From Candidatus Latescibacterota bacterium (GTDB lineage Bacteria > Latescibacterota > 4484-107 > B68-G9), in assembly GCA_003645885.1 (NCBI GenBank), contig QNCW01000001.1, forward strand, positions 1 through 40,271: a stretch of DNA of 40,271 nucleotides, in the 5' to 3' direction. The translations under genes were made by a program, and so were the position numbers. Of this stretch, positions 8,481 to 25,379 are shown piece after piece. Position 1 is the first letter of the stretch. Each line of letters starts with the position of its first letter. The notes under the pieces are model-generated. The model saw nothing but the letters and a program-made list of their open reading frames with translations, was not told where the DNA came from and did no database searches.

Positions 8481-9463
8481 CCCTTCTGTGCGGTGCATCT
8501 GGGAGGGTCTTCAACTTCTCGGCCGGCCGCACCGAGGTCCGGAGGGAGGAGGGGGGATGGGTGAAGGTCTTCGAGGACGGCTTTTGCGCCACCGATGGGA
8601 CGGTCCTCCTCTCGGCAAAGAGGGGAGCCTACAGGGAGGGGCAGGCCGAGGTCGTGTTGGAGGGCGAGGTCGTGGTGGAGGACACGGCGGGCTCCCTTAG
8701 GGCCGGGAAGGTGGTCTACCGGATGGACGAAGAGGTCGTGGAAGCATCCGGAAGGGTGAGCGGCTTATATCGTGGATGGAAGTTCAGGGCCGAAAAGGCC
8801 AAATACTTCCGGAGGGAAGGTTACGTAGTGGCCGGCGGTGGGGTCGTCCTCGAGGACACCTCAGGGGAGGTATCGGCCCGGGCCCTCAGGGGGAGGTACG
8901 AGCTTGAGGGGAGGGGATATATAGAGGGAGAGGCCGTACTTACGAGGACGGGGGCCATGCTATCCGCCGACAGGATATCCTCCGACGGGAGGAGTATGGT
9001 GGCGGAGGGGGAAGTCCTGATAAAGAAGGGGAACATGGAGGCGACCTGTGGACGGGCCGAGTACAGGGAGGGCAAAATGCTCCTTGTGGCGGGTCCCTCG
9101 GGCTCCATATCCGAGGGGGAGATCGAGAGCACCCTGAAGGGGGACACCATAGAGGTCTTCCTGAGGGACTCTGAGGTGGAAAGGCTCGTCCTGTTCGGCG
9201 GAGCAAAGCTCATTTCGCAAGGACCTAAGGGAAGCAACTTTCTTTCCGGAAGGAAGATAGAAGTGTTCATAGAAGGAAACGAGCCGAAGAGGGTGTTGGT
9301 CTTGGGAAACGCTGTGGGGGTCTACGAGGCCAAGGGGAAGAATCCATCGCTCAACACCGTGACCGGCGACAGGATGGAGGTGGTGCTGAGCGAGGGGGAG
9401 GTCGTGAGGGTGGGCGTAGCAGGGGGGGTGGAGGGAACTTACAGATGGAGGGGGAAGCTTTGA
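8438..9463 (+). CDS. LptA/OstA-like periplasmic protein, about twice the usual LptA length
   Basis: Repetitive beta-strand pattern typical of OstA_N folds (A.R..Y......v.L.G.V.v.d). It lies immediately upstream of lptB and overlaps it. The start is uncertain. GTG 8438 gives a signal-like N-terminus (..RKGAGACTLALLCGASG) and a smaller overlap with lptC than the track's ATG 8330. Confidence 0.58.
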   Translation: MVDALRKGAGACTLALLCGASGRVFNFSAGRTEVRREEGGWVKVFEDGFCATDGTVLLSAKRGAYREGQAEVVLEGEVVVEDTAGSLRAGKVVYRMDEEVVEASGRVSGLYRGWKFRAEKAKYFRREGYVVAGGGVVLEDTSGEVSARALRGRYELEGRGYIEGEAVLTRTGAMLSADRISSDGRSMVAEGEVLIKKGNMEATCGRAEYREGKMLLVAGPSGSISEGEIESTLKGDTIEVFLRDSEVERLVLFGGAKLISQGPKGSNFLSGRKIEVFIEGNEPKRVLVLGNAVGVYEAKGKNPSLNTVTGDRMEVVLSEGEVVRVGVAGGVEGTYRWRGKL

Positions 9464-10182
9464 GGCTGAGGGCCGAGGGGCTGGTGAAGGAGTACAGGGG
9501 CAGGAGGGTGGTGGACGGGGTGACGTTGGAGGTGGGACAGGGGGAGATAGTGGGCCTTTTGGGTCCCAACGGCGCCGGTAAGACGACAACCTTCTACATC
9601 ATAGTGGGCCTTATAAAGCCCCAGGCGGGTAGGGTGCTTTTGGACGGAGCCGACCTTTCCGGCATGCCCATGTACAGGAGGGCCCGCCTCGGCATAGGCT
9701 ACCTCTCCCAGGAGCCTTCGGTCTTCAGGGGCCTCACAGTCCTCCAGAACTTGACCTCTGTCTTGGAGGTCCACAAGGTTCCGAAGGGGGAGAGGGAGAG
9801 GACCGCCATGGACATGCTCGAAAGGCTCGGAATAGCTCACCTTGCAGGACAAAGGGCGGACACCCTCTCGGGGGGGGAGAGGAGGAGGTTGGAGATAGCC
9901 AGGGCCCTCGTGCTCCAGCCGAAGTTTATGCTTTTGGACGAGCCGTTCGTGGGGGTGGACCCCATAGCGGTGGAGGATGTCCAGAGGATAGTTGTACAGC
10001 TCAGGGATTGGGGGATAGGGGTGTTGATAACCGACCACAACGTGCGGGAGACTTTGAGCATAACTGACAGAGCTTACATAATGGCGGACGGGAAGATACT
10101 TGTGGAAGGCTCGGCAGAGTTTTTGGCCGGCGACCCCGAGGCGAGGAAGATATACTTAGGGGAGAAGTTCAGGCTCGACTAA
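9445..10182 (+). CDS. lptB: LPS export ABC transporter ATP-binding protein
   Basis: Motifs seen: Walker A GPNGAGKTTTFY, YLSQEPSVF, signature LSGGERRRLEIARAL, Walker B LLDEPF, and the LptB-type C-terminus ..ARKIYLGEKF. Confidence 0.92.
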   Translation: MEGEALRLRAEGLVKEYRGRRVVDGVTLEVGQGEIVGLLGPNGAGKTTTFYIIVGLIKPQAGRVLLDGADLSGMPMYRRARLGIGYLSQEPSVFRGLTVLQNLTSVLEVHKVPKGERERTAMDMLERLGIAHLAGQRADTLSGGERRRLEIARALVLQPKFMLLDEPFVGVDPIAVEDVQRIVVQLRDWGIGVLITDHNVRETLSITDRAYIMADGKILVEGSAEFLAGDPEARKIYLGEKFRLD

Positions 10183-15213: not shown

Positions 15214-16704
15214 TCAAAGTTCCCCCTCCGAGAAGACCTCGGCCGAGAAGGCCCAGATCTCCGCGTCCGGGCCCTTCCATGCGTCCCTCGGAAGTCCTGC
15301 CTTCAGACAGGTGTGCTCCAGGAACGTCTTGACGTCCCACCCGTATTCGGTGGCGACCTGGGGGAGGAGGAGCCCCTGCCTCCATCCCTTCCTTATTATG
15401 AGCCCGTCCCTTCCTATGACTATGTCCTTTATATCCTTGACCCTCCAGAGGGGGGTGAGGACGGATATCTCTATCTCCAACTCCGGGACCTCCTCGGGCC
15501 TGACAGGTGGGAAACGGGGGTCCTCCAGGGCGGCGGCCCTCGCCATGTCCCTCACAGCCTCCCATAGGGGTTTTATCCCCTCTATGTAACCTATACATCC
15601 CCTCAGCTCCCCGTGCTTCTTCAAGGTTACGAACGCCCCCCTCCTTTCCAGGAGCTTACCGGACTTCACTTGGAACTCGGGGGGAGGTTCGCCCCTCGTC
15701 ACCCTCTCGACCGTCCTGCGGGCTATGGTGAGCAGTGTCCTCTTGTCCTCCTCGCTCAGGCCGAGCTCCACGCCGACCCTCTTCTTCCCCTCCTCACCTC
15801 CGGCCCCGGACCTATACACCGCTATCGCTGAATACCCTACCACATATCCCCCCCTCTCCCCCACCACATCGTTAGAGTTCGTGTGGGTCAAAATCTTGAC
15901 CTTATCGGCCCCAAGTTCCCTCGCCGCCATAAGCATAGCAGCTATAGGACCTCCGCCGCAGGCCTGGTACTCCCCGCTCAGGAGCCCCTGGACGAACCCT
16001 TCCGGATCGAACCTGAGGATGGCCTTGAGCGTCTTCTCGTCCGTCCTGTTACACTCCTCGTAGCTGTACCCGTGGTAGAGGTCCGAGCTTGCCACTATGA
16101 GCACCTTCTTGCCCTTACATGCCCTCACGATGGCATCCGCAAGGTTCCTGCAGGCCCTGAGGTTCTGTTCCCCCATCACGACGGGCACGACCTTGAGGTC
16201 CGGTATGGCGACCTGAAGGAAGGGGAGTTCCACCTCCACGGAATGTTCGTACCTGTGGCCGGCATCCGAGAAAACTATATCGTCCTCGGGGGAGAGCATC
16301 TTCTTGGCTACATCCTCCGCTATGGGCACCACCCCTAAGGGCGTCTCGTACCCCCCCTCAGCCCAGATCGAGCTTCCCCTTAAAAATTCCCTGTGGCTCG
16401 GTCCTATGACCACCACAGCGTCGTAGCGTTTCCCCATGACCTCTTTGTACGCCACGGCGGCCGTGGGACCTGAATAGGGGTATCCTGCGTGGGGACAGAC
16501 GAGGCCTACTATCTCCCCTTCCACAGGGACCTTCCTTGCGTTCTCCAACATTTCCTCTACCATCCTCCTGAGGGTGGTGGGGTCGGCCGGATAGAACTGG
16601 CCAGCTACCGCCGGCTTGCGGACCTTGGCGGAGGCTTCGACGCTCACGCCGAGGAGCAACGCAGATAGGATGACGAAGCTAACCAACGAACACTCTATCC
16701 ACAT
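15214..16704 (-). CDS. Fusion protein: Memo-like (AmmeMemoRadiSam protein B) N-terminal domain plus AMMECR1 (protein A) C-terminal domain, with a predicted N-terminal signal peptide
   Basis: Memo motifs: AGQFYP, CPHAGYPYSGP, IGPSH, SSDLYHG, ACGGGPI. After a Gly/Glu/Lys linker (about nt 15760-15810) come AMMECR1 motifs GAFVTLKK.GELRGCIGY and EDPRFPPV. The N-terminus MWIECSLVSFVILSALLLGVSVEASA-KV looks like a Sec signal. AAGGAGG SD. Confidence 0.88.
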   Translation of the reverse strand: MWIECSLVSFVILSALLLGVSVEASAKVRKPAVAGQFYPADPTTLRRMVEEMLENARKVPVEGEIVGLVCPHAGYPYSGPTAAVAYKEVMGKRYDAVVVIGPSHREFLRGSSIWAEGGYETPLGVVPIAEDVAKKMLSPEDDIVFSDAGHRYEHSVEVELPFLQVAIPDLKVVPVVMGEQNLRACRNLADAIVRACKGKKVLIVASSDLYHGYSYEECNRTDEKTLKAILRFDPEGFVQGLLSGEYQACGGGPIAAMLMAARELGADKVKILTHTNSNDVVGERGGYVVGYSAIAVYRSGAGGEEGKKRVGVELGLSEEDKRTLLTIARRTVERVTRGEPPPEFQVKSGKLLERRGAFVTLKKHGELRGCIGYIEGIKPLWEAVRDMARAAALEDPRFPPVRPEEVPELEIEISVLTPLWRVKDIKDIVIGRDGLIIRKGWRQGLLLPQVATEYGWDVKTFLEHTCLKAGLPRDAWKGPDAEIWAFSAEVFSEGEL

Positions 16705-16725: not shown

Positions 16726-17859
16726 CTACTTCCAAACTCCCGGTATCTCCCTGCCGCAGTGTACACAACGTCCGTCCCTCAGGCCCTCGAGCTCGGTCAT
16801 GTACCCTATCCTGTATATAAGCCTCCTTCCACAGGAAGGACAATATGTGCTCTCGGCTTTGTGCCCCGGGACGTTCCCTATGTACACGAAGTTGAGCCCT
16901 TCACCCTTGGCTATCTTCCACGCCCTCTCCAAAGTCTTAACGGGGGTGGGGGGTAGGTTACGAAGTTTGTACTGGGGGAAGAACCTCGTAAAGTGCAGGG
17001 GGACGTCCGGCCCGAGGTTCCCCATTATCCACCTGCACATATCTCTTATCTCGTCCGGGGAGTCGTTGAGCGTAGGGACCACGAGGTAGACCATCTCGAA
17101 CCATATGCCTATCTCCTTGAGGAGGACCAAGGTGTCCAGAACAGGTTTGAGGTGACCGTGGCAGACGTTCCTATAGAACCGCTCGGTGTAGGCCTTGAAA
17201 TCTATCTTCACCGCGTCCAGGACATCGCAGAGCTGCCTCATGGGCTCAGGGTTTATGTAACCGTTGGATATCATCACGCTGCGTACGCCCCTTTTGTGGC
17301 CCTCCACGGCGCAGTCGTACATGTACTCGTAGAAGATCACGGGCTCTGCATACGTGTAAGCTATGCTTTCGCATCCCGTGTAATAGGCGGCCCGGGCTAT
17401 CTCCACAGGGGAGGCTATGTAGTCGGTGCTCTGCTCCGGGCGGATCTGAGATATCTGCCAGTTCTGGCAGAACTCGCACTCCATGTTACATCCGACCGTG
17501 GATATGGAGAAGGCCTTGGTGCCGGGAAGGAAGTGGAACAGGGGCTTCTTCTCTATGGGGTCCACGTGCCATGTGCAGGGCTTGCCGTAGACGAGGGTGT
17601 AGTACGTGCCTCCCCTGTTCTCCCTGACGCCGCAGTATCCCCTCTCCTGGTCGTCTATGACGCACTCCCTCGGGCAGAGCACGCAGCGGATCTTCTTGTG
17701 GGGAAGCTTTTCGTAATGTCTGGCCTCGGTCAAGGACTCATCTGCGGGGTCGTCCTCCCTGGGGAAGCGGGGGAAGTACGAACGAACGAAACCGGGAAGG
17801 AGCGTGGCAGCGGACGCTGACAGTGTGGCCTTGACGAAGCTGCGCCTGGTCCAGAGCAT
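16726..17859 (-). CDS. AmmeMemoRadiSam-system radical SAM enzyme (PFL-activase-like) with a twin-arginine-type N-terminus
   Basis: Radical SAM CNMECEFCQN (CX3CX2C). The N-terminal Cys cluster is CVLCPRECV..GYCGVR. The C-terminal zinc-ribbon-like motif is CPSCG..CVHCG. The N-terminus MLWTRRSFVKATLSASAATLLPGFV matches T-R-R-x-F-x-K plus an h-region. I prefer ATG 17859 over the track's GTG 17868. Both keep the RR motif. Confidence 0.9.
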   Translation of the reverse strand: MLWTRRSFVKATLSASAATLLPGFVRSYFPRFPREDDPADESLTEARHYEKLPHKKIRCVLCPRECVIDDQERGYCGVRENRGGTYYTLVYGKPCTWHVDPIEKKPLFHFLPGTKAFSISTVGCNMECEFCQNWQISQIRPEQSTDYIASPVEIARAAYYTGCESIAYTYAEPVIFYEYMYDCAVEGHKRGVRSVMISNGYINPEPMRQLCDVLDAVKIDFKAYTERFYRNVCHGHLKPVLDTLVLLKEIGIWFEMVYLVVPTLNDSPDEIRDMCRWIMGNLGPDVPLHFTRFFPQYKLRNLPPTPVKTLERAWKIAKGEGLNFVYIGNVPGHKAESTYCPSCGRRLIYRIGYMTELEGLRDGRCVHCGREIPGVWK

Positions 17860-17871
17860 ATACCTCACCCC

Positions 17872-18279
17872 CTAAAACTTTATCTGCATCGCCCTAGGGG
17901 GACAAGCCCTTATGCACGCCTCACAAGCTATGCACTTGGAGCTGTCGAAGGAGACGAGCATGGTCTCCCTGTCCAAACTCAAAGCCCCAGTGGGACACAT
18001 CACAACGCACACACCACAATGGGTACACTTACCCTCGTCCCTATACACATCCTCTCCGAAGGCCTGTATGTGAACCCCCAAACCCTTGAGGTAGGATATG
18101 CCGGACTCGAGCGCCCGAGGCTCGCCGGAAAGTTCGAAGACCAATACTCCCTCCTCCTGTGGGCTTATCTGTGCCTTCAGGATGTTGAAGGCCAGGTCGT
18201 AGTCCTTGACCAGCCTGTAGATTATGGGCTTGTCCACAAGGTGGGCGGGAAACCGAAGCACGAGCTTTCGTGAGGTCAC
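17872..18279 (-). CDS. NIL-domain / 2x[4Fe-4S] ferredoxin-domain protein
   Basis: An N-terminal NIL-like domain (KPIIYRLVKDYDLAFNILKAQI..VLVFEL.G) is followed by CTHCGVCVVMCP and CIACEACIRACP. I place the start at GTG 18279 (GGAGG SD, GTGA overlap with the upstream stop) rather than the track's 18381, which overlaps the upstream gene by 106 nt. Confidence 0.85.
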   Translation of the reverse strand: MTSRKLVLRFPAHLVDKPIIYRLVKDYDLAFNILKAQISPQEEGVLVFELSGEPRALESGISYLKGLGVHIQAFGEDVYRDEGKCTHCGVCVVMCPTGALSLDRETMLVSFDSSKCIACEACIRACPPRAMQIKF

Positions 18280-19010
18280 CTTACCTCCTTCGCCCTTGTG
18301 AGCCTGAGGTCTCCCAGGACTCCTAACTTGTCCCCTAAGACCACCATCGCTCCCCTCACGCCATCTATCCTTAAGGCCCACTTTATGGCCTCGGATATTT
18401 CTTCCGGTTCCCGGACCCTGTTTCCTAATGCGGTGGCCACAGCGTCCGCCAAGGCTCCACCTTCGGCCACCACCACTGCAGCGTCGGCCCTGCCGAAGCT
18501 CAGGGAATGTCCCACGGTGCCCGAGGAGGTGCAGACCGAGCAGGGGGTCTCCTCTGGCTTTATTTCTAAGGCCAGCTTTCCCGAAAGAGGGGAACCTCCT
18601 GCAAGTATCCCTACCCTCCGTGGACGGGAAAGCGAGAGGAATATGTCCCCACCGTTCTCCACTATGACCTCGCCCGAAAGCTCACAGAGCCTCCTTCCCA
18701 CGTGTTCGGCTATCGCCCCGGCCACGGCCGCCATAGGCCCCACCTCGGCCTTCTTCCCAGCCTCCGCCATCTCCTTGACCAGCTGAGGGGCATCTTCGCC
18801 GACGGGATAAGGGGTCAGGGCCCGGAGGAAGCCCGGGTCCCTTCGTATGTACCTCGCCAACTGCCTCCTCGCCTCCCTCAGGGTCCTGAGGGCTTCCTCT
18901 GAGAGGTCTTCTGAGGCCCTTATCCAGAGGTCGCTCTCCCCCAGGACGACCCTGAAGGTGCGGAGACCGTCGTCCGGGACCTTCTCCCTGTAGCCCCTCG
19001 GCTCATACAT
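18276..19010 (-). CDS. UPF0280 / COG2122 ApbE-like family protein
   Basis: Features seen: GPMAAVAGAIAE, IVENGGDIFL, and S.GTVGHSLSFG.ADA, as I remember them from archaeal UPF0280 proteins. 8-nt overlap (ATGTATGA) with the DUF362 stop. Confidence 0.78.
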   Translation of the reverse strand: MYEPRGYREKVPDDGLRTFRVVLGESDLWIRASEDLSEEALRTLREARRQLARYIRRDPGFLRALTPYPVGEDAPQLVKEMAEAGKKAEVGPMAAVAGAIAEHVGRRLCELSGEVIVENGGDIFLSLSRPRRVGILAGGSPLSGKLALEIKPEETPCSVCTSSGTVGHSLSFGRADAAVVVAEGGALADAVATALGNRVREPEEISEAIKWALRIDGVRGAMVVLGDKLGVLGDLRLTRAKEVR

Positions 19011-19959
19011 ATATCACCTCTATGAGGCTCGGATCGGCGTTTCCCAAACGATGTTGAGGGTCGGAAGCTGTAAGGATGTAGTGCGGTTCCCTGCCCGCCT
19101 CCTTGAGGGAAGGAAGGCCCTTCTCCGCCCTCTTCTTCTCTATGATCTGCCAGCCCGTGTAATCCAAAGCTACCACGTCCCTCGAAAGTATCAAAGCCCC
19201 GAAGGGCCACGTCCATTGGGGCATGTAGGGAGGGCCGCCCTCGTACTGGGCGAGAAGACCGTCCAGGATGGTCAGGACTGTCTTCTGCCTTATGAAGGGT
19301 AGGGTGTTGAGGTCCGCTATGTACGGGTCCCCGGCGTTGTCGTGGTATTTGTTAGGGTTGTGGATGGCACCGAAGAAGTTCTTCATACCCAAGGTGACCC
19401 CACATATCCCGTGGTCCTTGAGCACGGGGAGGTTTATGACCTTGGTGCACCGCTCTATCAGGATCCTGCTGAACAGGCTCCCCACCGACATATGCTGTAT
19501 GAGGGCAGGATAATATCCCACCTCGTCGGTGCCGTAGCACTGGATGTCGTTCCCCCCCCTGTTCGTCCTGTACCCCGCCTTCCTGAGGTCGGCGTCCGCC
19601 CTGTCCCATATCACGATGTCCTTGGGCCTCACCCCGGCGGAGATGAGCCTCTTAGCGACGGCGCCCACAAGCTCCTTTCGGGTGGACATCCCCCTCCCTG
19701 CGAGGCAGTTTACCTTGAGCCCCACGACGTCCCCGGGTCCGACCAGCTCGGGCCACACGTCCTTCGCCTTCGCCCCGAAGAGCGCCTCGATCCCTCGGTC
19801 CAGGAGGACCCCGACCGCCTCCTCGTCCAACCTCCCCTTCCCGACGGATACCACCACGCGGGACCTCGTGCCTGCGAGGGCGGGAGGCAGCAACCCCGGA
19901 CCCAGAGCTGCCCCGACCCCTAAGGATATGGCCCGTTTCAGGAACTCCCTTCGGTCCAT
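19003..19959 (-). CDS. DUF362 domain protein with twin-arginine (Tat) signal
   Basis: The N-terminus MDRREFLKRAISLGVGAALGPGLLPPALA is a textbook Tat signal. DUF362-like core: GLKVNC, VINLPVLKDHGICGVTLGMKNFFGA, ILDGLLAQYEGGP, RDVVALD. I place the start at ATG 19959. The track's 20049 start would read through the promoter. Confidence 0.85.
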   Translation of the reverse strand: MDRREFLKRAISLGVGAALGPGLLPPALAGTRSRVVVSVGKGRLDEEAVGVLLDRGIEALFGAKAKDVWPELVGPGDVVGLKVNCLAGRGMSTRKELVGAVAKRLISAGVRPKDIVIWDRADADLRKAGYRTNRGGNDIQCYGTDEVGYYPALIQHMSVGSLFSRILIERCTKVINLPVLKDHGICGVTLGMKNFFGAIHNPNKYHDNAGDPYIADLNTLPFIRQKTVLTILDGLLAQYEGGPPYMPQWTWPFGALILSRDVVALDYTGWQIIEKKRAEKGLPSLKEAGREPHYILTASDPQHRLGNADPSLIEVIYV

Positions 19960-19971
19960 CGTTTCGAATGT

Positions 19972-20001
19972 AATATACAAGGAAAGGACAGGAATTGTCA
20001 A
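19972..20001 (-). promoter_or_regulatory. Near-consensus sigma70-type promoter of the DUF362-to-Memo/AMMECR1 operon
   Basis: On the minus strand: TTGACA (20001-19996), 18-nt spacer, TATATT (19977-19972). Only 12 nt separate the -10 from ATG 19959, and they contain no SD. The transcript would therefore be leaderless or nearly so. Confidence 0.5.
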
Positions 20002-20032
20002 GCCGATCGAAGTCGATGTCCTTAATAAATGT

Positions 20033-20058
20033 GAGGCCGGGGCGTACACCCCGGCCTC
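20033..20058 (-). terminator. Probable intrinsic terminator ending the M16 / FG-GAP / protease / small-ORF transcript
   Basis: Perfect 10-bp GC stem GAGGCCGGGG / CCCCGGCCTC with a 6-nt loop, 6 nt after the small-ORF stop. On the minus strand it is followed by ACAUUUAUUAAGG (U-rich). Confidence 0.5.
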
Positions 20059-20318: not shown

Positions 20319-20771
20319 TCAAGGAATTTGTGATGACCTCAGCATCTCCTCCAGATCAGATATCGCCTCCTGCACCTTCGGGCTCAGTCCCGTCCCGAAC
20401 CTTATGTCCTCGGGCTGGACACCTAAGATTACGGTCCTTATGCCCTCCCTTTCCAAAAAATCCACAAGGGGCAGGATGGAGGGCCCATGCGTCGAGAACC
20501 CGAGGCCCTCCACCTCCTCCCTTTCTATCTTCCTTATCTCGCCGGGCCTTCCCCCGAAGTCCACGGCGTCCACGATCACGACGACGTTCGGTCCGAGGTC
20601 CAAGATCTCCCCTAAAAGGTTTTCGGGCGCGCTTCCCCCTTCCAGGACGGGGAGCTCGTCCTTCAACCTCCTGGCTAAGACGACGCCGAGGCCGTCGTCC
20701 CTCCTAAGCTCGTTCCCTATCCCCAATATCACGGCCCTCTCGCCGGGCCTCAAACCTATTCCCCCTTCCAT
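20319..20771 (-). CDS. Hydrogenase maturation endopeptidase family protein (HybD/HycI-like)
   Basis: Motifs seen: ILGIGNELRRDDGLG, VVIVDAVDFG, GFSTHGPS. ATG 20771 overlaps the upstream gene's end by 16 nt. GTG 20732 (giving M-ILGIGN) is an alternative start. The track's 20963 start lies deep inside the upstream gene. Confidence 0.8.
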   Translation of the reverse strand: MEGGIGLRPGERAVILGIGNELRRDDGLGVVLARRLKDELPVLEGGSAPENLLGEILDLGPNVVVIVDAVDFGGRPGEIRKIEREEVEGLGFSTHGPSILPLVDFLEREGIRTVILGVQPEDIRFGTGLSPKVQEAISDLEEMLRSSQIP

Positions 20772-23700
20772 ACTATGAGGCGTGTGTTGTAGCGCTCTAA
20801 GTAGTCCCTGTGTTCCGGGTCGTCGGGGTAGGATTCCCCCTCGGGATAAGGGTAGGTGCTCATCCCATGGAAGGGGAGGGGGTCCACCGTCCAGGTGTAG
20901 GCGGACCAGAGGTCGGTGCTCTTTCCGAAGCCGTTCGCGTAGAATACGAAGCTCCTTTCCCATCCCTCGGGGACCGGGAGGACCCCGAACTTCAGGGCCA
21001 CCTCGTCGCCGTGTCTCATTATCACGAACCTGTCGTCCACGTCCTTCAGGAGCTCCTTCACATCCCCGTATCTGGTGTAGTACCCTGTTATGTCCCTCCA
21101 GTTATACCTCGGAGTTAAGAGGGCCCTCCGGTAGTCGTAAACCTTCGGCTTCCTTCCGTCCGGGGAATAGTCGTACGGGTACCCGAGCCACCTCAGCACT
21201 GCCTCCTCGAGGGGGAGTTCCCGAACTCGGTGGGGGGGTTCGGAGGAGGTGGTGTCCACAAGAATTTGGTCCCAATAGATTTGATAGTTCGTCGTTATGC
21301 GGAGGCGGCAGTCGTGGGGAGGAAGCTTTCCCGTAAGGTCAAATACCATGGGCTTCGGCTCCCCCGCAGGGGCTCCCATGTCCTCCGTCACGACCTTCCA
21401 TCCTCCCCTTCCGTCGGGGACCTCGAGCCTCGGAGGCATGGGACTTATTCCGGCCTGCCACGCCGCCAGGTTAGCTGTGGAGGACATGTACTCCAGCCAT
21501 CCGTAGGCCACAAGGAGCATCCTTCCAGCGCCCGAGAGGTCCCCGAAGTCCAGGGTCAGGGTGTGAACCTTTGCGTAGCCCTGGAACCTTTCCAGGGGTA
21601 CATCCGGGTAGAGCCTGTCCCTGTGCATCACGAGGTCGGTGACGTCCCTCCCCCTGTAGTCCACTGCGTTCCTGGGATGTACAGGGTTGCGTACGAAGTA
21701 AAGCCGGAACTCGGGGTACGGAGGAACGCTCACGAACCTCTCGTTGGGATAGACCTCCCATCCCGGAGGATGGTCCACGGCCAGAAGCTTCACCTGGTCC
21801 AAGAGTATGACCTCCTCAAGCTGGCTTGCTACCCTCAGGTCGTAGATTCCTCCGATGGGCCTCAGAAGTTTCCTGGGGATCGGGACATATTCGTCCGGAT
21901 CCGGTAGGGCGTACACTCCAGGTCTTATCAGGTATCCCGAGTCACCTGCGCCGTTGAAGTCCGTAACATAGTGTATTTCCCTCCCGTCGTTTACGTAGAG
22001 TATGGGACAGGACGTACCCTTCCTATCTATCTCCACGAGGTTCGTATCCCTCCGGGCTGGAACCTCCATTTCGGTCTGCCTCACGCCGTCCGGCCAGAGG
22101 GCCCTGAGAAGGTCCACCTTCGAGTTCCTACCGAGCCCGAAGCTCAGCACCCCTCCGGGGCTCCAGGAGTCCCCCCTCGCCTCCTTCTTCTGCCAGAGCG
22201 AGCCGGTCTTGACCTCGAGCTTAGTGCCTATGCCCTGGCGGTTGCATCCCCTGCCCACGAGGCGCACCACGAGCCAAGAGTTCTCGTTCCCCCCTTCGTT
22301 CCTGAAGAGCCTCACCCCTCCTCCGTAGGAGACGAGCGCCACGTCCTGGTCCCCGTCCAGGTCGTAGTCCCCTACGAGGGCCTTCTTAACGCCGGGAACG
22401 GAGACCTTCGGGAAGGCCTCCTCGTCCACCTCGAAGTTCTTCCCCATCCTGTTCCTGAGGAGCAGGGGCCTTCCGTCACGGGATACGGCCAAGATGTCCA
22501 TGTCGCCGTCGTTGTCGTAGTCCAAGGACGATACAACTTCGGCGGAGAAGCCTTCCGGCCAGGGGAGGGAGACGGGGATGTACCTTCCGTCCCTCAGGTA
22601 GCGGTATAGGACAGGAGGTTCCCCCGTACTACCTACGACCAGGTCCATGAACCTGTCCCTGTCGTAGTCGGAGATCGCCGCAGAGAAGCTCCTTCCTGGG
22701 GAGGCGATGCCGGCCTCCTCGGCCATGTCGGTGAACGTCCCGTCCCTGTTGTTGCTGAAGAGCTGGTCCGGTTCCCCGTCGTTCAGGACGAAGAAGTCTA
22801 CATCCCTGTCGTTGTCGTAATCCGTGAAGACGACCCCCCTGCTACGGCGTGCCCCTCCGATCCCTGCCTCCTGGGTCACGTCGGTGAATGTCCCGTTGAA
22901 GTTGTTTCTGTACAATGTGTTCCTGTCTCCGTAGTTGACCACGAATATGTCCAAGTCCCCGTCGTGGTCGACGTCGGCAAATGCGCAGGCCACGCTCCAG
23001 CGTGGGTCCCCCACCCCTGCCTCCTGGGTCATGTTGGTGAAAGTCCCGTCCCCTTCGTTGCGGTAGAGCAAGTTGGGTCCGAAGTTGGCCACATAGAGGT
23101 CCAGGTCACCGTCGTTGTCGTAGTCACCCCACACGGCGTCCATCCCCAGCCCTTCGTCCCCCACTCCTGCCTTCGGGGTGACGTCCACGAACCTACCTTC
23201 CTCGTTCCTGAGCAGGACGTTGGCACCACATCGGACGATGTACATGTCCAGGTCACCGTCGCCGTCGTAGTCGCCCCAGCATGCGTTCCCTCCGAGCGGC
23301 TCGACTACATGCTCCCTTAGCCATTCCTCCGAGGCATCCTTCGGGACCTCCTCCGGGACCCTGCCGGGAAGCGGGAAGGAGGGCACTCCGGCCTCTTCGG
23401 TCGCATCCACGAACTTCACGGGGTACCTCTCGTCCGGGGGAGGCTTCAGGAGCGATGGGTCGGGGAGGGCCTCGGCGTACTTGCCCTGCTCTAAATACCT
23501 CACCCCAGCGGTGGGCTTGAGCCCGAGGGCCCTGAGCCTCCTGAACTTCTTCATGTGCCTTTCGGCCTCCTCGTACCTTCCGAGCCTCCTGAGTTCAGTT
23601 GCGAGGTTGTAATGGGCGGATATGTTGTTGGGGTCGAGCCTCAGGACCTGTTCGTAGGCCTTCACCGCTGCCTCGTGGTCCTTGAGCTTGGAGAGCACTA

Positions 23701-24082
23701 TCCCCAAGTTGTGCCACACGTAAGGGTCCTCGGGGTCCTTCTTGAGCACCGTTTCGAACTCCATCTTGGCTTCTGGATACTGGCCCCTGATCTTATATAT
23801 AAGACCCAAGTTATAGTGGGCGTAGGGGTTGTCGGGGTCCAGGGAGAGGGCCTCCTTGAGTTCCCTCACGGCGTCATCGTACCTGCTCATCTGCACGTAC
23901 GCTATGCCCAGGTTGATGTGACCTATGACGTAGTTCGGATGTAGCTTCAGCACCTCCTCGAACTCCCGGGCGGCTGCTGCGAAGTTGTTCTGCTCCATGT
24001 ATACCACCCCGAGGTCGTTGTGGCGGGTGACCTCCGCCATGTCCCCTCCGAACAGGACCGAGGCGATGACGAGGTACAACAT
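20756..24082 (-). CDS. Large TPR / FG-GAP (VCBS) repeat / ASPIC-UnbV protein (CRTAC1-like), 1108 aa
   Basis: N-terminal TPR repeats (..LHPNYVIGHINLGIAY.., ..DPDNPYAHYNLGLIY..). Multiple FG-GAP/VCBS repeats follow (GDYDGDGDLDMYIV, GDYDNDGDLDLYVANFGPNLLYRNEGDGTFTN, DVDHDGDLDIFVVN, ...). An ASPIC/UnbV-like segment follows (NSWLVVRLVGRGCNRQGIGTKLEV). The remaining ~450 aa form a C-terminal region. I place the start at ATG 24082 (AAGGAGGAG SD), not 24178. Confidence 0.88.
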   Translation of the reverse strand: MLYLVIASVLFGGDMAEVTRHNDLGVVYMEQNNFAAAAREFEEVLKLHPNYVIGHINLGIAYVQMSRYDDAVRELKEALSLDPDNPYAHYNLGLIYKIRGQYPEAKMEFETVLKKDPEDPYVWHNLGIVLSKLKDHEAAVKAYEQVLRLDPNNISAHYNLATELRRLGRYEEAERHMKKFRRLRALGLKPTAGVRYLEQGKYAEALPDPSLLKPPPDERYPVKFVDATEEAGVPSFPLPGRVPEEVPKDASEEWLREHVVEPLGGNACWGDYDGDGDLDMYIVRCGANVLLRNEEGRFVDVTPKAGVGDEGLGMDAVWGDYDNDGDLDLYVANFGPNLLYRNEGDGTFTNMTQEAGVGDPRWSVACAFADVDHDGDLDIFVVNYGDRNTLYRNNFNGTFTDVTQEAGIGGARRSRGVVFTDYDNDRDVDFFVLNDGEPDQLFSNNRDGTFTDMAEEAGIASPGRSFSAAISDYDRDRFMDLVVGSTGEPPVLYRYLRDGRYIPVSLPWPEGFSAEVVSSLDYDNDGDMDILAVSRDGRPLLLRNRMGKNFEVDEEAFPKVSVPGVKKALVGDYDLDGDQDVALVSYGGGVRLFRNEGGNENSWLVVRLVGRGCNRQGIGTKLEVKTGSLWQKKEARGDSWSPGGVLSFGLGRNSKVDLLRALWPDGVRQTEMEVPARRDTNLVEIDRKGTSCPILYVNDGREIHYVTDFNGAGDSGYLIRPGVYALPDPDEYVPIPRKLLRPIGGIYDLRVASQLEEVILLDQVKLLAVDHPPGWEVYPNERFVSVPPYPEFRLYFVRNPVHPRNAVDYRGRDVTDLVMHRDRLYPDVPLERFQGYAKVHTLTLDFGDLSGAGRMLLVAYGWLEYMSSTANLAAWQAGISPMPPRLEVPDGRGGWKVVTEDMGAPAGEPKPMVFDLTGKLPPHDCRLRITTNYQIYWDQILVDTTSSEPPHRVRELPLEEAVLRWLGYPYDYSPDGRKPKVYDYRRALLTPRYNWRDITGYYTRYGDVKELLKDVDDRFVIMRHGDEVALKFGVLPVPEGWERSFVFYANGFGKSTDLWSAYTWTVDPLPFHGMSTYPYPEGESYPDDPEHRDYLERYNTRLIVWKGE

Positions 24083-24092
24083 ATCTCCTCCT

Positions 24093-25379
24093 TCACTCCG
24101 GCACGACAGCTCCCAGGACGTAGGGCCCCGAGAGGTACCTCCGGGCGGCCCTGAGCACATCCTCGGCGGTGACCGCATCTATAAGTTCGGGATATATCTC
24201 CACGAACCTGTACCCTAACCCCGTAAGCTCGTACTTGGCCAGGAGGGACGCCTGGTCCATGTTCCTCTCCTGGGACATCAGGAAGGTCCCTTTAATGTAG
24301 GTCTTGGCAGCCTCGAGCTCTTCCTCCGGGACCTGCTCCTCGACCATCCTTTCCACCTCTCCAAGCACAACTTCCTTGGCCTCCTCGAAACGCTCCGGCC
24401 TCGTGCCCAGGTATATCAGAAATAGGCTCGGCCCCTCCATAGCTATGTAGCTCGAGCCTATCTGATAGGCGAGCCCCCTCTCGTCCCTGACGGATACGAA
24501 GAGCCTGGAGTCCATCGCTCCACCTAAGATGGCGTCCAGAACCTCCAGGGCTGCGAAATCCCGGTCCGAAACCGGCGGGGCTGGGTAACCAAAGGCGGCC
24601 CAAACTGCTCGGCTTTCCCTCTGCTCAAAGGTTTCGCTGGATTCCTCCCGGCCGGGAACCTGTCCGGGCGCAGGTTCGGGGAGCGGCCCCTCGGGCAGGT
24701 CCGCCAGGTTCTCCTCCACCTCCTTCAAAAACTCCCCCTCCGGGAAGTTCCCCACCGCAGCCAGGACCATGTTGTTCGGGACGTAGAACTTCCTGTACCA
24801 CCCCACGACCTCTTCCCTTGAGAACTTGGACACCGTCTCCGGATAACCCAATACGGGCTTGTGGTGAGGGTGCTGGCCGTAGAAGGCCTCCCTCATAAGG
24901 TCAACGGCCCTGGTAAGGAGTCGGTCCCTTCTTGCCTTTATCCTTTTGAGGGCCATCTGCTTTTCCTGTTCAACTTCGTCCTCCGGGAACTTGGGATGGA
25001 GCACGACGTCGAAGAGCAACTCCAAGGCCTCCTTCCACCGGTCCTTCGTGGCTAAAAGCGAGATGTATCCGTACTCCCGGAACGCCCCCGAGGAAAGCTT
25101 GGCGCCCAAGGACTCTATCTCCTCCGCAAGCTCCTCCGCAGTCCTGGATTCCGTTCCCTTCAGGAGAAGTCGTTGCGTTATATCGGAGAGTCCCGCCTCC
25201 TCGTCCCTCTCGTAGAGGGGCCCCATCCTCAGGAGCACCTCCACCGCAACTATGTCGTTGGCCCCTGATGGCTTGGTCAACACCACGAGGCCGTTTTCGA
25301 ATGTAACCTTTCTGACGGCAGGCTTTTCGGCCTTAGTTACGGCAAAGAGCAGCCCGAAGGCCAGCAGAAATTTGAGCAT
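24093..25379 (-). CDS. M16 (pitrilysin/insulinase) family protein, predicted secreted and non-catalytic
   Basis: Signal-like N-terminus MLKFLLAFGLLFAVTKA. The fold is M16 (FENGL.V, ..LLKGT.SR....L...IE.LGA). Where active M16 enzymes have HxxEH the sequence reads SDITQRL, so His, Glu and His are all replaced. GGAGGGGG SD. Confidence 0.83.
   Translation of the reverse strand: MLKFLLAFGLLFAVTKAEKPAVRKVTFENGLVVLTKPSGANDIVAVEVLLRMGPLYERDEEAGLSDITQRLLLKGTESRTAEELAEEIESLGAKLSSGAFREYGYISLLATKDRWKEALELLFDVVLHPKFPEDEVEQEKQMALKRIKARRDRLLTRAVDLMREAFYGQHPHHKPVLGYPETVSKFSREEVVGWYRKFYVPNNMVLAAVGNFPEGEFLKEVEENLADLPEGPLPEPAPGQVPGREESSETFEQRESRAVWAAFGYPAPPVSDRDFAALEVLDAILGGAMDSRLFVSVRDERGLAYQIGSSYIAMEGPSLFLIYLGTRPERFEEAKEVVLGEVERMVEEQVPEEELEAAKTYIKGTFLMSQERNMDQASLLAKYELTGLGYRFVEIYPELIDAVTAEDVLRAARRYLSGPYVLGAVVPE

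What the first reader, a model, noticed from the sequence alone, without database searches (positions are those of the whole stretch)
16726..17859. Radical SAM enzyme with a twin-arginine export-type N-terminus
Seen:
- The N-terminus is MLWTRRSFVKATLSASAATLLPGFV: T-R-R-x-F-x-K followed by a hydrophobic stretch.
- About 35 residues then precede the first Cys cluster.
- There is no alternative downstream ATG before the catalytic domain.

Established: Tat exports folded, cofactor-loaded proteins. Radical SAM chemistry needs SAM and a low-potential reductant, neither of which is known to be available outside the cytoplasm.

Inference: there are three readings. The enzyme might work extracytoplasmically, which would be mechanistically surprising. 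The RR peptide might be an uncleaved membrane anchor. Or it might be a chaperone or proof-reading handle. Each would be informative for the unknown function of the whole family.
Basis: partly seen in the sequence, partly recalled or inferred. Interest (0 to 1): 0.7.

Follow-up and report, generated by a model that had tools for sequence, protein, structure and literature searches.

The report
Radical SAM enzyme with Tat export signal
An iron-sulfur "radical SAM" enzyme of unknown function, normally thought of as strictly cytoplasmic, carries a conserved signal for export in the folded state, and its two operon partners carry export signals too, so this three-gene system is predicted to work outside the cytoplasm.

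Summary
The minus-strand gene 16726..17859 encodes a 377-aa AmmeMemoRadiSam radical SAM enzyme (TIGR04337, 401 bits). Its first 25 residues, MLWTRRSFVKATLSASAATLLPGFV, form a textbook twin-arginine leader.

Chance and a mis-called start are both unlikely:
- RR is invariant in 62 aligned homologs.
- 112 of 121 close relatives show the [S/T]-R-R-x-F-[L/I]-K logo, while the rest of the leader varies freely.
- TIGR01409 accepts the leader.
- The ATG and its Shine-Dalgarno site are conserved.

The wider picture is new. Across several phyla there is a cassette of DUF362 (also RR-led, LarA-like fold), then the RR-led radical SAM gene, then a Memo-AMMECR1 fusion with a Sec or lipoprotein signal. DUF362 sits next to RR-led enzymes in 45 of 60 loci and next to others in 0 of 51. 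Other relatives are fused to CcdA-like or NapH/FMN-type transmembrane electron conduits, some with an internal RR motif before the last helix.

Genuine Tat export to the periplasmic face is the best reading (about 0.55). A vestigial chaperone handle is disfavoured.

Two things remain unexplained: the source of SAM, and loci where a leaderless enzyme sits beside an exported Memo-AMMECR1. I found no publication on this. I rate it a new variant of a known system.

The parts
16726..17859 (-). AmmeMemoRadiSam-system radical SAM enzyme, 377 aa (stop codon included in the coordinates)
   Evidence: TIGR04337 scores 401.4 bits against a cutoff of 220, matching residues 47-376 to model positions 2-333. 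PF04055 also matches. The AF2 model has pLDDT 90.4 and its core matches PFL-AE 3cb8 at E 1e-13, TM 0.82.
17785..17859 (-). Tat-type leader, residues 1-25. The n-region is MLWTRRSFVK and the h-region is ATLSASAATLLPGFV.
   Evidence: TIGR01409 scores 18.0 bits against a cutoff of 16.7. PF10518 scores 20.0 against a gathering threshold of 22.7. The h-region has a Kyte-Doolittle mean of 1.37 over 15 uncharged residues. AF2 places a helix at residues 5-17, followed by a disordered stretch.
17830..17850 (-). Twin-arginine consensus T-R-R-S-F-V-K (residues 4-10)
   Evidence: R5 and R6 are invariant in 62 aligned homologs. The logo across 112 relatives is S/T/N at -1, then RR, x, F (106 of 112), L/I/V, K (73 of 112).
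17722..17784 (-). Variable c-region and linker, residues 26-46 (RSYFPRFPREDDPADESLTEA). It includes a basic residue straight after the h-region and has no canonical AxA site.
   Evidence: pLDDT is below 55. The leader evolves faster than the mature part but stays in frame: synonymous/nonsynonymous counts are 8/18 against 122/40 versus L021.
17863..17872 (-). Shine-Dalgarno sequence GGGGGTGAGG for the ATG at 17859. It overlaps the TAG stop of the upstream gene.
   Evidence: It is conserved as AGGAGGTGAGG in L001 and AGGAGGTGA in L021.
17632..17685 (-). N-terminal Cys motif C59-x2-C62-x3-C66...C76 (candidate auxiliary metal or cluster site)
   Evidence: Invariant in alignments A3 and A1.
17467..17490 (-). 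Radical SAM cluster motif C124-x3-C128-x2-C131 (CNMECEFC)
16756..16842 (-). C-terminal CX2C...CX2C motif (C340, C343, C365, C368)
   Evidence: Invariant in A3.
15214..16704 (-). Memo (residues 29-297) fused to AMMECR1 (residues 316-496), 496 aa
   Evidence: TIGR04336 scores 278 bits and TIGR04335 scores 190 bits. PF01875 and PF01871 also match. The Shine-Dalgarno sequence AAGGAGGG precedes the ATG at 16704.
16627..16704 (-). Sec-type signal peptide or anchor of the Memo-AMMECR1 fusion (MWIECSLVSFVILSALLLGVSVEASA|KV)
   Evidence: The h-region has a Kyte-Doolittle mean of 2.43, and an ASA site lies just before the start of the Memo domain. Orthologs in other phyla carry lipobox-type signals. The n-region here has no basic residue, so the orientation is not certain.
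19003..19959 (-). DUF362 protein, 318 aa, with its own RR leader (MDRREFLKRAISLGVGAALGPGLLPPALAG)
   Evidence: PF04015 matches. TIGR01409 scores 20.5 bits against 16.7. A 100%-identical 318-aa cluster representative exists, P0387. The AF2 model has pLDDT 90.3 and a LarA-like fold (9q3j, E 3e-6).
18276..19010 (-). UPF0280 / ApbE-like protein without a signal peptide (lineage-specific insert)
   Evidence: NF003323 scores 297 bits. PF27030 AbpE_bact is recorded for the identical gene. Found only in the window, L001 and L021.
17872..18279 (-). NIL domain plus 2x[4Fe-4S] ferredoxin, 135 aa, without a signal peptide (lineage-specific insert)
   Evidence: PF09383 and PF00037 match. The GTG start overlaps the upstream TGA as GTGA, with SD GAAGGAGG. 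Independent gene calls also give 135 aa.
19972..20001 (-). Promoter-like site TTGACA-18-TATATT for the five-gene operon. It lies 12 nt upstream of the DUF362 ATG.
   Evidence: This is a consensus match only.

Best explanation
The N-terminal 25 residues are a functional twin-arginine (Tat) signal peptide.

Proposed mechanism:
1. The enzyme folds in the cytoplasm and receives its [4Fe-4S] cluster or clusters there, and probably binds SAM there.
2. The Tat translocase then moves it to the periplasmic face of the inner membrane of this diderm bacterium.
3. There it works with two other exported products of the same operon: a Tat-exported DUF362 protein with a LarA-like fold, and a Sec-exported or lipoprotein Memo-AMMECR1 fusion.

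The window therefore holds an 'envelope version' of the AmmeMemoRadiSam system.

Shown:
- the family assignment;
- a conserved, consensus-quality RR leader;
- independent export signals on both partners;
- the strict DUF362 to RR-leader association;
- relatives of the enzyme fused to transmembrane electron conduits and to extracytoplasmic domains.

Inferred:
- that export actually happens;
- that DUF362 (here) or the fused CcdA-like or NapH/FMN modules (elsewhere) supply reducing power;
- that SAM is carried out bound to the enzyme, and used once or regenerated;
- that the substrate is an envelope or membrane molecule.

Whether the leader is cleaved in this particular protein is open.
For: 1. 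Family and leader position. TIGR04337 scores 401 bits and the model starts at residue 47, so the leader is an add-on to a normally leaderless family. In a sample of 150 representatives at 50% identity, most are 330-360 aa without a leader.

2. Leader quality. RR sits at residues 5-6 within TRRSFVK. The h-region is 15 uncharged residues with low hydrophobicity (Kyte-Doolittle mean 1.37, against 2.43 for the Sec-type signal next door). A basic residue follows the h-region. TIGR01409 is passed, 18.0 against 16.7.

3. Conservation. 109 of the 120 closest homologs (59-94% identity; Latescibacterota, KSB1, Calditrichota) have an RR leader. R5 and R6 are invariant in 62 aligned sequences. The logo equals the Tat consensus while the rest of the leader is hypervariable. 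56 of 60 genome loci from at least six phyla have it.

4. Translated and correctly started. ATG and SD are conserved, the leader evolves fast but stays in frame, and the alternative TTG is not conserved. The same 377-aa product is called on 20 contigs.

5. Partners. DUF362 has an RR leader in 42 loci. The Memo-AMMECR1 fusion has a Sec or lipobox N-terminus. All three have leaders in 37 of 60 loci.

6. DUF362 link. DUF362 lies next to an RR-led enzyme in 45 of 60 loci and next to a non-RR enzyme in 0 of 51 (Fisher 2e-18, not corrected for phylogeny).

7. Fusions in relatives. These include a single TM plus FMN_bind plus rSAM with no TM between the last two domains. There are also DsbD_2 (CcdA-like) plus rSAM fusions, in which positive-inside loop charges place the rSAM domain outside. 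In those, an RR-type motif precedes the last, weakly hydrophobic TM. Further fusions are signal plus beta-propeller or CBM11 plus rSAM, and signal plus Memo plus AMMECR1 plus rSAM. The RR-before-last-TM pattern matches the dual Sec/Tat signature described in PMC5449189. FMN_bind domains of NapH-like systems are extracytosolic according to PMC8238504.

8. Host. The window encodes lipid A and LPS-transport proteins, so the organism has a periplasm.
Against: - No experiment or dedicated predictor (SignalP, TatP, TATFIND) could be run.
- Pfam TAT_signal is just below threshold, 20.0 against 22.7.
- The window protein lacks an AxA cleavage site.
- No tat genes lie in the window, and the genome could not be checked.
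- No source of SAM outside the cytoplasm is known (established knowledge).
- At least eight loci pair a leaderless radical SAM gene with a lipoprotein or anchored Memo-AMMECR1 fusion: L049, L052, L054, L076, L084, L097, L119 and L122. The enzyme can therefore evidently serve an exported partner from the cytoplasm, and the partners' signals do not strictly co-vary with its leader.
- A large Planctomycetota clade has a strongly hydrophobic non-RR N-terminal helix whose orientation is undetermined. If the domain faced outward, this would imply Sec insertion of an Fe-S domain, which is hard to reconcile. If it faced inward, it would suggest tethering to the cytoplasmic face as an alternative theme.
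- In NapH-like fusions the C-terminal radical SAM domain may be cytoplasmic.
Confidence: 0.55

Rival explanations
1. The enzyme is Tat-targeted but the leader is not cleaved. The RR peptide stays as an N-terminal anchor, in the manner of Rieske proteins, and holds the radical SAM domain at the outer face of the inner membrane next to the lipoprotein or anchored Memo-AMMECR1. This is a variant of the best explanation and differs from it only in the fate of the leader.
For: - The window protein has no small-x-small site at the end of the h-region (GFV|RSY) and has three Arg residues soon after it.
- About half of the relatives lack an AxA site.
- Many family members use true N-terminal TM anchors or polytopic fusions, so membrane attachment is a recurrent theme.
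Against: - The h-region is only 15 uncharged residues here (median 18 in the clade) with a Kyte-Doolittle mean near 1.1-1.4. That is short and weak for a stable TM helix. The anchored Planctomycetota clade has 22 residues at 2.54.
- The 84% ortholog P0002 has LASA|Y at the homologous position, and 61 of 112 relatives have an AxA.
Confidence: 0.2
2. The radical chemistry happens in the cytoplasm before export. The enzyme uses cytoplasmic SAM and reductant to build or bind a product or cofactor, or is pre-loaded for a single turnover. It is then exported by Tat as a carrier or one-shot activase for the Sec-exported Memo-AMMECR1, which cannot carry a cofactor through Sec.
For: - This removes both the SAM and the reductant problem.
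- The core fold is closest to PFL-activating enzyme, an activase that acts on a protein partner.
- Loci with a leaderless enzyme next to an exported Memo-AMMECR1 show that the cytoplasmic enzyme can serve an exported partner.
- Cytoplasmic radical SAM maturases of exported proteins are known: the HXS system, and anSME and QhpD (from memory).
Against: - Stoichiometric use of a 43-kDa Fe-S enzyme is costly.
- It does not explain why DUF362 is tied only to the exported form.
- It does not explain why relatives are fused to transmembrane electron conduits, which suggest continuing redox turnover outside.
- There is no direct evidence for a protein substrate.
Confidence: 0.15
3. The RR peptide does not drive translocation. 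It is a binding handle for a cytoplasmic chaperone or quality-control factor, or a weak tether to the cytoplasmic face of the membrane, and the enzyme works in the cytoplasm like canonical family members.
For: - Radical SAM chemistry needs SAM and a low-potential donor, both cytoplasmic (established knowledge).
- Vestigial Tat motifs retained as chaperone sites are known, for example NarG/NarJ (from memory).
- The operon here also encodes a signal-less ferredoxin (NIL-Fer4) and an ApbE-like protein, which could serve the enzyme in the cytoplasm.
- Leaderless enzymes coexist with exported Memo-AMMECR1.
- The orientation of the Planctomycetota anchors is ambiguous.
Against: - The motif is not degenerate. 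RR is invariant, and F at +3 and K at +5 are kept across phyla.
- The h-region and a variable linker are maintained.
- The co-encoded DUF362 has an equally good RR leader, and Memo-AMMECR1 has lipoprotein signals.
- No REMP-type chaperone gene is conserved in the cassette.
- The NIL-Fer and ApbE-like genes occur only in three closely related loci.
Confidence: 0.1
4. Annotation artefact: translation starts downstream (for example at the TTG at codon 43) and the RR peptide is never made.
For: An in-frame TTG lies four codons before the start of the family model.
Against: - The TTG is CTG in L021 and has no proper Shine-Dalgarno site.
- The ATG has a conserved SD and lies 12 nt after the upstream stop.
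- The frame and the RR motif are kept in more than 100 homologs, with a synonymous-rich pattern only in the mature part.
Confidence: 0.02

Closest known systems
Canonical AmmeMemoRadiSam system (NCBIfam TIGR04337 radical SAM enzyme, TIGR04336 Memo-like protein B, TIGR04335 AMMECR1-like protein A)
   Same: All three domains are present and score above the curated cutoffs. The genes are adjacent. The CX3CX2C motif and the N- and C-terminal Cys motifs are conserved.
   Different: - The family models and most representatives have no leader, and the radical SAM model starts at residue 47 here.
- In this window the radical SAM enzyme has a Tat leader, Memo and AMMECR1 are fused behind a Sec-type signal, and a fourth component, Tat-led DUF362, is added.
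- The function of the canonical system is itself unknown. The only comparative treatment I know is Burroughs et al. 2019, J Biol Chem, cited in PMC7159879. That paper is not held in the library. From memory, it proposes nucleotide-base or isoprenoid modification.
Tat-exported iron-sulfur proteins (for example hydrogenase small subunits, NrfC, DmsA/B, Rieske proteins)
   Same: They have an N-terminal S/T-R-R-x-F-L-K signal on a protein that must receive Fe-S clusters in the cytoplasm before transport. Rieske-type uncleaved anchors and dual Sec/Tat insertion offer precedents for the anchored and fused relatives (PMC5449189).
   Different: None of these is a radical SAM enzyme, and none needs a diffusible cytoplasmic co-substrate such as SAM. 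I found no described Tat-dependent radical SAM enzyme.
Cytoplasmic radical SAM maturases of exported proteins (anSME/AtsB and QhpD, from memory; the HXS system, PMC13128918)
   Same: In each case a radical SAM enzyme is genetically coupled to a partner that ends up in the periplasm. This is the pattern seen in the loci where a leaderless enzyme sits beside an exported Memo-AMMECR1.
   Different: In those systems only the substrate carries the export signal. Here the radical SAM enzyme itself does.
Pyruvate formate-lyase activating enzyme (PFL-AE; PDB 3cb8, 3c8f)
   Same: It is the best structural match for the core: E 1e-13, TM 0.82 normalised to the target, rmsd 2.4 A. It is also the best non-family HMM match.
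   Different: - TIGR02493 scores 55 bits against a cutoff of 232.
- There is no glycyl-radical enzyme nearby.
- The protein has an extra N-terminal Cys-rich beta domain and a C-terminal CX2C...CX2C domain.
NarG-type vestigial Tat motif (from memory)
   Same: An RR-like N-terminus on a cofactor-containing enzyme that might remain cytoplasmic.
   Different: The vestigial motif is degenerate and lacks a functional h-region and c-region. Here the consensus is complete and invariant.

Membership tests
Tat (twin-arginine) signal peptide | S/T-R-R-x-F-L-K-type motif within the first ~35 residues | tested here: met
   T-R-R-S-F-V-K lies at residues 4-10 and matches the TatP-type regex RR.[FGAVML][LITMVF].
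Tat (twin-arginine) signal peptide | Uncharged h-region of about 12-20 residues, less hydrophobic than Sec signals, often followed by a basic residue | tested here: met
   ATLSASAATLLPGFV is 15 residues with a Kyte-Doolittle mean of 1.37 and is followed by R26. The clade median is 18 residues with a mean of 1.06. The neighbouring Sec-type signal scores 2.43.
Tat (twin-arginine) signal peptide | Score above the curated threshold of a Tat-signal HMM | tested here: inconclusive
   TIGR01409 scores 18.0 bits against a cutoff of 16.7, a pass. PF10518 scores 20.0 against a gathering threshold of 22.7, just below.
Tat (twin-arginine) signal peptide | Signal peptidase I site (small-x-small) after the h-region | tested here: not met
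   The window protein has G-F-V|R. Ortholog P0002 has A-S-A|Y, and an AxA is present in 61 of 112 relatives. This feature defines cleavage, not Tat targeting.
Tat (twin-arginine) signal peptide | RR motif conserved among orthologs while the rest of the leader drifts | tested here: met
   R5 and R6 are invariant in 62 sequences, and 112 of 121 sequences carry the motif.
Tat (twin-arginine) signal peptide | Transport depends on TatABC and on the RR pair | not testable with these tools
   This needs reporter fusions or fractionation. The presence of tat genes in the source genome could not be checked.
AmmeMemoRadiSam radical SAM enzyme (TIGR04337) | HMM score above the curated cutoff | tested here: met
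   401.4 bits against 220.
AmmeMemoRadiSam radical SAM enzyme (TIGR04337) | CX3CX2C radical SAM motif and the family's extra Cys motifs | tested here: met
   C124/C128/C131, C59/C62/C66/C76 and C340/C343/C365/C368 are all present, and all are invariant in A3.
AmmeMemoRadiSam radical SAM enzyme (TIGR04337) | Genomic linkage to Memo-like and AMMECR1-like genes | tested here: met
   The fused Memo-AMMECR1 gene starts 21 nt downstream. The two are linked in 46 of 60 related loci.
Glycyl-radical enzyme activase (PFL-AE, TIGR02493 / TIGR02494) | HMM score above the cutoff, and a glycyl-radical enzyme partner | tested here: not met
   The scores are 55 bits against 232 and 34 bits against 174. No glycyl-radical enzyme lies in the window. 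Only the fold resembles PFL-AE.
Vestigial / remnant Tat motif (NarG type) | Degenerate RR motif kept only as a chaperone site, with the cargo and its partners cytoplasmic | tested here: not met
   The motif is complete and invariant. Both partners have their own export signals.

The most novel reading that the evidence does not exclude
Radical SAM chemistry is carried out outside the cytoplasm. A multi-phylum clade of AmmeMemoRadiSam enzymes would be exported folded by Tat and would turn over in the periplasm.

Reducing power would come from one of two sources:
- a co-exported, cofactor-bearing LarA-like DUF362 protein, which is found only with the exported form;
- in other lineages, covalently fused CcdA-like or NapH/FMN transmembrane conduits. 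Some of these would form a previously unlisted family of dual Sec/Tat-inserted membrane proteins.

This would be the first extracytoplasmic radical SAM system. It would point to a cell-envelope or membrane-lipid substrate for the Memo/AMMECR1 proteins.
Probability: 0.35. Interest if true: 0.9.

Novelty: new variant of a known kind. Interest (0 to 1): 0.72.

Why it matters
- **Compartment.** Radical SAM enzymes are treated as strictly cytoplasmic because they need SAM, a low-potential electron donor and protection of an oxygen-labile cluster. A conserved, consensus-quality Tat leader on a whole clade, with exported partners and with relatives wired to transmembrane electron conduits, challenges that assumption. 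It also gives a directly testable case, through reporter fusions, fractionation and EPR of periplasm.

- **Function of the system.** Memo and AMMECR1 are conserved from archaea to humans, are linked to human disease, and have no agreed biochemical function. The finding supplies a localisation clue for them. In many bacteria they are lipoproteins or secreted proteins, which points to an envelope or membrane substrate.

- **DUF362.** It singles out DUF362, a LarA-like protein of unknown function, as a specific partner of the exported enzyme.

- **Membrane insertion.** It flags CcdA-like radical SAM fusions as candidate new dual Sec/Tat substrates.

Tried and rejected
1. **Literature.** Searches for AmmeMemoRadiSam, for radical SAM with twin-arginine, periplasm or Tat signal, for AMMECR1 with Memo and radical SAM, and for DUF362 found nothing on Tat-led radical SAM enzymes. 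The key comparative paper, Burroughs et al. 2019, is not held.

2. **Expected co-variation.** I expected that a leaderless enzyme would go with leaderless Memo-AMMECR1. This was rejected. Adjacent Memo-AMMECR1 fusions carry signals or anchors whether or not the enzyme has a leader. Most leaderless-enzyme loci showed no BLAST-detectable partner within 5 kb, so that control was weak.

3. **Other conserved neighbours.** Clustering the ORFs of the 60 loci gave only the three cassette genes, shadow ORFs and one lineage-restricted membrane protein. No conserved SAM transporter, cytochrome or chaperone emerged.

4. **NIL-ferredoxin and ApbE-like genes as general parts of the system.** Rejected, because they occur only in the window, L001 and L021. 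No ApbE flavinylation motif is present in any cassette protein.

5. **PDB sequence searches.** There is no solved member of the radical SAM family beyond distant PFL-AE, and none for DUF362.

6. **Orientation of the Planctomycetota N-terminal anchors by the positive-inside rule.** The result is ambiguous.

7. **TM counts for the NapH-like fusions from a crude hydropathy scan.** These are too uncertain to place the radical SAM domain.

8. **Tat genes.** No tat genes are in the window.
Full report
**1. The observation**

The finding's coordinates hold a minus-strand ORF, 16726..17859. It starts with ATG, and an alternative GTG lies three codons upstream.

- The motif T-R-R-S-F-V-K occupies residues 4-10.
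- A 15-residue uncharged stretch follows it.
- The first cysteine motif (C59, C62, C66, C76) begins 34 residues after that stretch.
- The radical SAM CX3CX2C motif lies at C124-C131.
- There is no in-frame ATG before codon 126. There is, however, a TTG at codon 43 and a GTG at codons 60 and 99.

The ATG is the credible start for four reasons.
- It has the Shine-Dalgarno sequence GGGGGTGAGG.
- It lies 12 nt after the stop of the upstream gene.
- ATG and SD are both conserved in the two closest genomic orthologs, while the TTG is CTG in one of them.
- Independent gene calls on 20 metagenome contigs give the same 377-aa product.

A crude Tat filter was applied to all 1044 candidate starts in the window. 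It picks only four places, and two of them are this gene and the DUF362 gene of the same operon.

**2. What the protein is**

It is an AmmeMemoRadiSam-system radical SAM enzyme. TIGR04337 scores 401 bits against a cutoff of 220, and Pfam Radical_SAM also matches. The family model starts at residue 47, so the first 46 residues are an extension of a family whose models are leaderless.

An AlphaFold2 model built on 62 homologs has pLDDT 90.4.
- It shows a short helix at residues 5-17.
- Residues 18-39 form a disordered linker.
- The domain that follows is confident.
- The domain core is closest to pyruvate formate-lyase activating enzyme (3cb8, E 1e-13, TM 0.82).

No member of the family has a solved structure.

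**3. The leader is conserved as a Tat signal**

- Of the 120 closest homologs (59-94% identity), 109 have RR.[FLIVMA][LIVMFA] in the first 45 residues. Those that carry a source name are labelled Latescibacteria, KSB1, Calditrichaeota or Caldithrix. Most exceptions look N-terminally truncated.
- The logo around RR in 112 sequences is S/T/N at -1, then R, R, x, F (106 of 112), L/I/V, K (73 of 112). This is the textbook Tat consensus. The surrounding leader is hypervariable.
- In a 62-sequence alignment, R5 and R6 are invariant columns.
- The h-region is short and weakly hydrophobic: 15 residues with Kyte-Doolittle mean 1.37 here, against a clade median of 18 residues and mean of 1.06. The Sec-type signal of the next gene scores 2.43.
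- The curated NCBIfam Tat-signal model TIGR01409 accepts the leader (18.0 bits against 16.7). Pfam TAT_signal is just below its threshold (20.0 against 22.7).
- The leader evolves faster than the mature part but stays in frame.
- The window protein has no AxA site. Its 84% ortholog has LASA|Y at the same place, and 61 of 112 relatives have an AxA. Cleavage of this particular leader is therefore undecided.

**4. The operon**

Five genes are tightly packed on the minus strand. A promoter-like site lies at 20001..19972.

| Gene | Coordinates | Notes |
|---|---|---|
| DUF362 | 19959..19003 | N-terminus MDRREFLKRAISLGVGAALGPGLLPPALAG; passes TIGR01409 at 20.5 bits |
| ApbE-like UPF0280 | 19010..18276 | |
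| NIL + 2x[4Fe-4S] ferredoxin | 18279..17872 | |
| Radical SAM enzyme | 17859..16726 | |
| Memo-AMMECR1 fusion | 16704..15214 | N-terminus MWIECSLVSFVILSALLLGVSVEASA\|KV looks like a Sec signal ending just before the Memo domain |

The rest of the window is ordinary chromosome. It includes lipid A acyltransferase, LptA-like and LptB-like genes, so the organism is diderm and has a periplasm. The nearest genomes are Latescibacterota MAGs.

**5. Related loci**

I examined 60 genome loci from Latescibacterota, KSB1, Calditrichota, Acidobacteriota/Terriglobia, Planctomycetota, Bacteroidales and others.
- 56 radical SAM genes have an RR leader.
- 44 loci have DUF362 immediately upstream, 42 of them with an RR leader.
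- 46 loci have a Memo-AMMECR1 gene, usually fused, whose N-terminus is hydrophobic and often ends in a lipobox-like Cys (for example LIGC, LLNC, LTSC).
- All three carry leaders in 37 loci.
- The ApbE-like and NIL-ferredoxin genes occur only in the window and its two closest relatives.
- No other neighbour is conserved.

**6. A control set and an exception**

I ran a metagenome scan with an alignment of 32 leaderless family members. Most of the loci it returned carry leaderless enzymes, and DUF362 was never found next to one.

Over all 140 loci with at least 1.5 kb upstream, DUF362 accompanies 45 of 60 RR-led enzymes and 0 of 51 others (Fisher 2e-18, not phylogeny-corrected).

My expectation that Memo-AMMECR1 signals would co-vary with the enzyme's leader failed. 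At least eight loci pair a leaderless enzyme with a lipoprotein or anchored Memo-AMMECR1 fusion: L049, L052, L054, L076, L084, L097, L119 and L122. The enzyme can therefore apparently serve an exported partner from the cytoplasm. This keeps open a model in which the radical step precedes export.

**7. The wider family**

A profile-free scan of 1.84 billion representatives gave 1696 hits at E < 1e-30. The best 150 break down as follows.
- Most are leaderless proteins of 330-360 aa.
- About 28 are RR-led.
- Some have non-RR anchors or a lipobox (P0144, LLSGC).
- Many are fusions.

Pfam analysis of the fusions shows these architectures.
- CcdA-like DsbD_2 + radical SAM
- DsbD_2 + FMN_bind + NapH-like Fer4_5 + radical SAM
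- TM + FMN_bind + Fer4_5 + radical SAM
- A single TM + FMN_bind + radical SAM with no TM between the last two domains
- Signal + beta-propeller + radical SAM, and signal + CBM11 + radical SAM
- Signal + Memo + AMMECR1 + radical SAM

The FMN_bind and DsbD_2 fusions are recurrent: at least 5 and at least 9 clusters at 90% identity, respectively.

FMN_bind domains of NapH-like systems are extracytosolic electron-transfer modules according to PMC8238504. That paper does not mention radical SAM, Memo, AMMECR1 or DUF362.

In the DsbD_2 fusions, the loop charges follow a positive-inside pattern that places the radical SAM domain outside. The loop before the last helix often carries an RR-type motif (LRRHLQRVSR, MRRRLRTFSR, WRRRSARAAR). 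That helix is Ala-rich and weakly hydrophobic, and it is followed by Arg. This is the signature of dual Sec/Tat insertion defined experimentally in PMC5449189, which lists other families but not this one.

A large Planctomycetota and Spirochaetia clade has instead a strongly hydrophobic 22-residue non-RR helix. Its orientation cannot be inferred from flank charges.

**8. DUF362**

- A 100%-identical 318-aa cluster representative confirms the MDRREF start.
- In 59 homologs the RR pair is at least 90% conserved.
- The AF2 model (pLDDT 90.3) is remotely similar to LarA-type nickel-pincer-nucleotide enzymes: 9q3j at E 3e-6, and also malate and lactate racemases. This agrees with the shared Pfam clan reported in PMC11770544.
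- A Tat leader on such a protein fits a cofactor loaded in the cytoplasm.
- Its strict association with the exported enzyme makes it the best candidate for the periplasmic helper. That role is inference only.

**9. Interpretation**

The most economical reading is that this is a working Tat signal. On this reading the window encodes an envelope-located version of the AmmeMemoRadiSam system. I put this at about 0.55.

| Reading | Confidence |
|---|---|
| Exported by Tat to the periplasmic face | about 0.55 |
| Exported, but the leader stays uncleaved as an anchor | 0.2 |
| Radical chemistry finished before export, with the enzyme acting as a pre-loaded one-shot activase or carrier | 0.15 |
| Leader is a non-translocating handle or cytoplasmic-face tether | 0.1 |
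| Mis-called start | 0.02 |

The SAM problem does not. One possibility is that SAM is co-exported bound to the cluster and is used once or regenerated, as in lysine 2,3-aminomutase. That is my inference from general knowledge and was not tested.

**10. Novelty**

The protein family, the Tat pathway and DUF362 are all known, and databases hold many of these sequences. I found no paper that describes any of the following:
- a Tat-led radical SAM enzyme;
- the DUF362 / radical SAM / Memo-AMMECR1 cassette;
- the conduit fusions.

The one comparative paper on Memo-AMMECR1 systems could not be read, so prior mention there cannot be excluded. I classify the finding as a new variant of a known kind, with high interest if export is confirmed.

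Noticed in passing
window 19003-19959 (-): The DUF362 protein has its own consensus RR leader and a LarA-like (nickel-pincer nucleotide enzyme) predicted fold. In related loci it is found only next to RR-led radical SAM genes: 45 of 60 against 0 of 51. Its function is unknown.
   Followed up: partly
proteins P0130, P0147, P0289, P0303, P0332, P0341, P0383 (relatives, not in the window): These CcdA-like DsbD_2 + radical SAM fusions have an RR-type motif before the last TM, which is Ala-rich and followed by Arg. This is the signature of dual Sec/Tat-inserted membrane proteins. The family is not among those listed in PMC5449189.
   Followed up: partly
proteins P0133, P0134, P0138, P0139, P0145, P0271-P0273: The radical SAM domain is fused to FMN_bind and/or NapH-like Fer4_5 modules, which are extracytosolic electron-transfer architectures. 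In P0139-type proteins no TM separates FMN_bind from the radical SAM domain.
   Followed up: partly
loci L049, L052, L054, L076, L084, L097, L119, L122: A leaderless radical SAM gene lies directly beside a Memo-AMMECR1 fusion that has a lipoprotein signal or an N-terminal anchor. Enzyme and partner are therefore predicted to sit on opposite sides of the membrane.
   Followed up: partly
proteins P0274-P0386 (Planctomycetota, Spirochaetia, Lentisphaeria): About 100 of 116 relatives have a strongly hydrophobic non-RR N-terminal helix (22 aa, Kyte-Doolittle mean 2.5) and a long Pro/Ala/charged linker before the radical SAM domain. The orientation is undetermined. If the domain faces outward, it is unclear how the Fe-S cluster would be acquired.
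   Followed up: partly
window 17872-19010 (-): An ApbE-like UPF0280 gene and a NIL + 2x[4Fe-4S] ferredoxin gene are inserted between DUF362 and the radical SAM gene. They overlap as GTGA, suggesting translational coupling. The insert occurs only in this lineage (window, L001, L021). Neither protein has a signal peptide. From memory, this gene pair is linked to sulfide-dependent Cys and homocysteine biosynthesis in methanogens.
   Followed up: partly
window 19959-20058 (-): The DUF362 ATG lies only 12 nt after a near-consensus -10 box (TTGACA-18-TATATT) and has no Shine-Dalgarno site, which suggests a nearly leaderless mRNA. A strong hairpin (11 bp, 9 GC) lies just upstream, after a 57-aa ORF. 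Gene callers disagree on the DUF362 start (318 aa against 296 aa).
   Followed up: no
loci L050, L051, L056 (Bacteroidales): Two or three tandem RR-led radical SAM paralogs, with no Memo, AMMECR1 or DUF362 gene nearby.
   Followed up: no
proteins P0123, P0128, P0144, P0157: The radical SAM domain lies behind a signal peptide plus a beta-propeller (PorZ/Reg_prop-like) or a CBM11 domain. There is also a lipobox-bearing radical SAM enzyme (LLSGC), and a single polypeptide of signal + Memo + AMMECR1 + radical SAM.
   Followed up: no
proteins P0168, P0171, P0177, P0179, P0182 and others (about 1000-1100 aa): Family members with an N-terminal radical SAM domain and a C-terminal extension of about 700 aa. 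The extension was not examined.
   Followed up: no
window 20319-24178 (-): A HycI-like hydrogenase maturation protease, with no hydrogenase gene in the window, overlaps the end of a 1140-aa TPR + FG-GAP + ASPIC/UnbV protein.
   Followed up: no
window 7103-10182 (+): A lipid A acyltransferase, an LptA/LptD_N-like protein and an LptB-like ABC ATPase. Together they indicate a diderm envelope.
   Followed up: no
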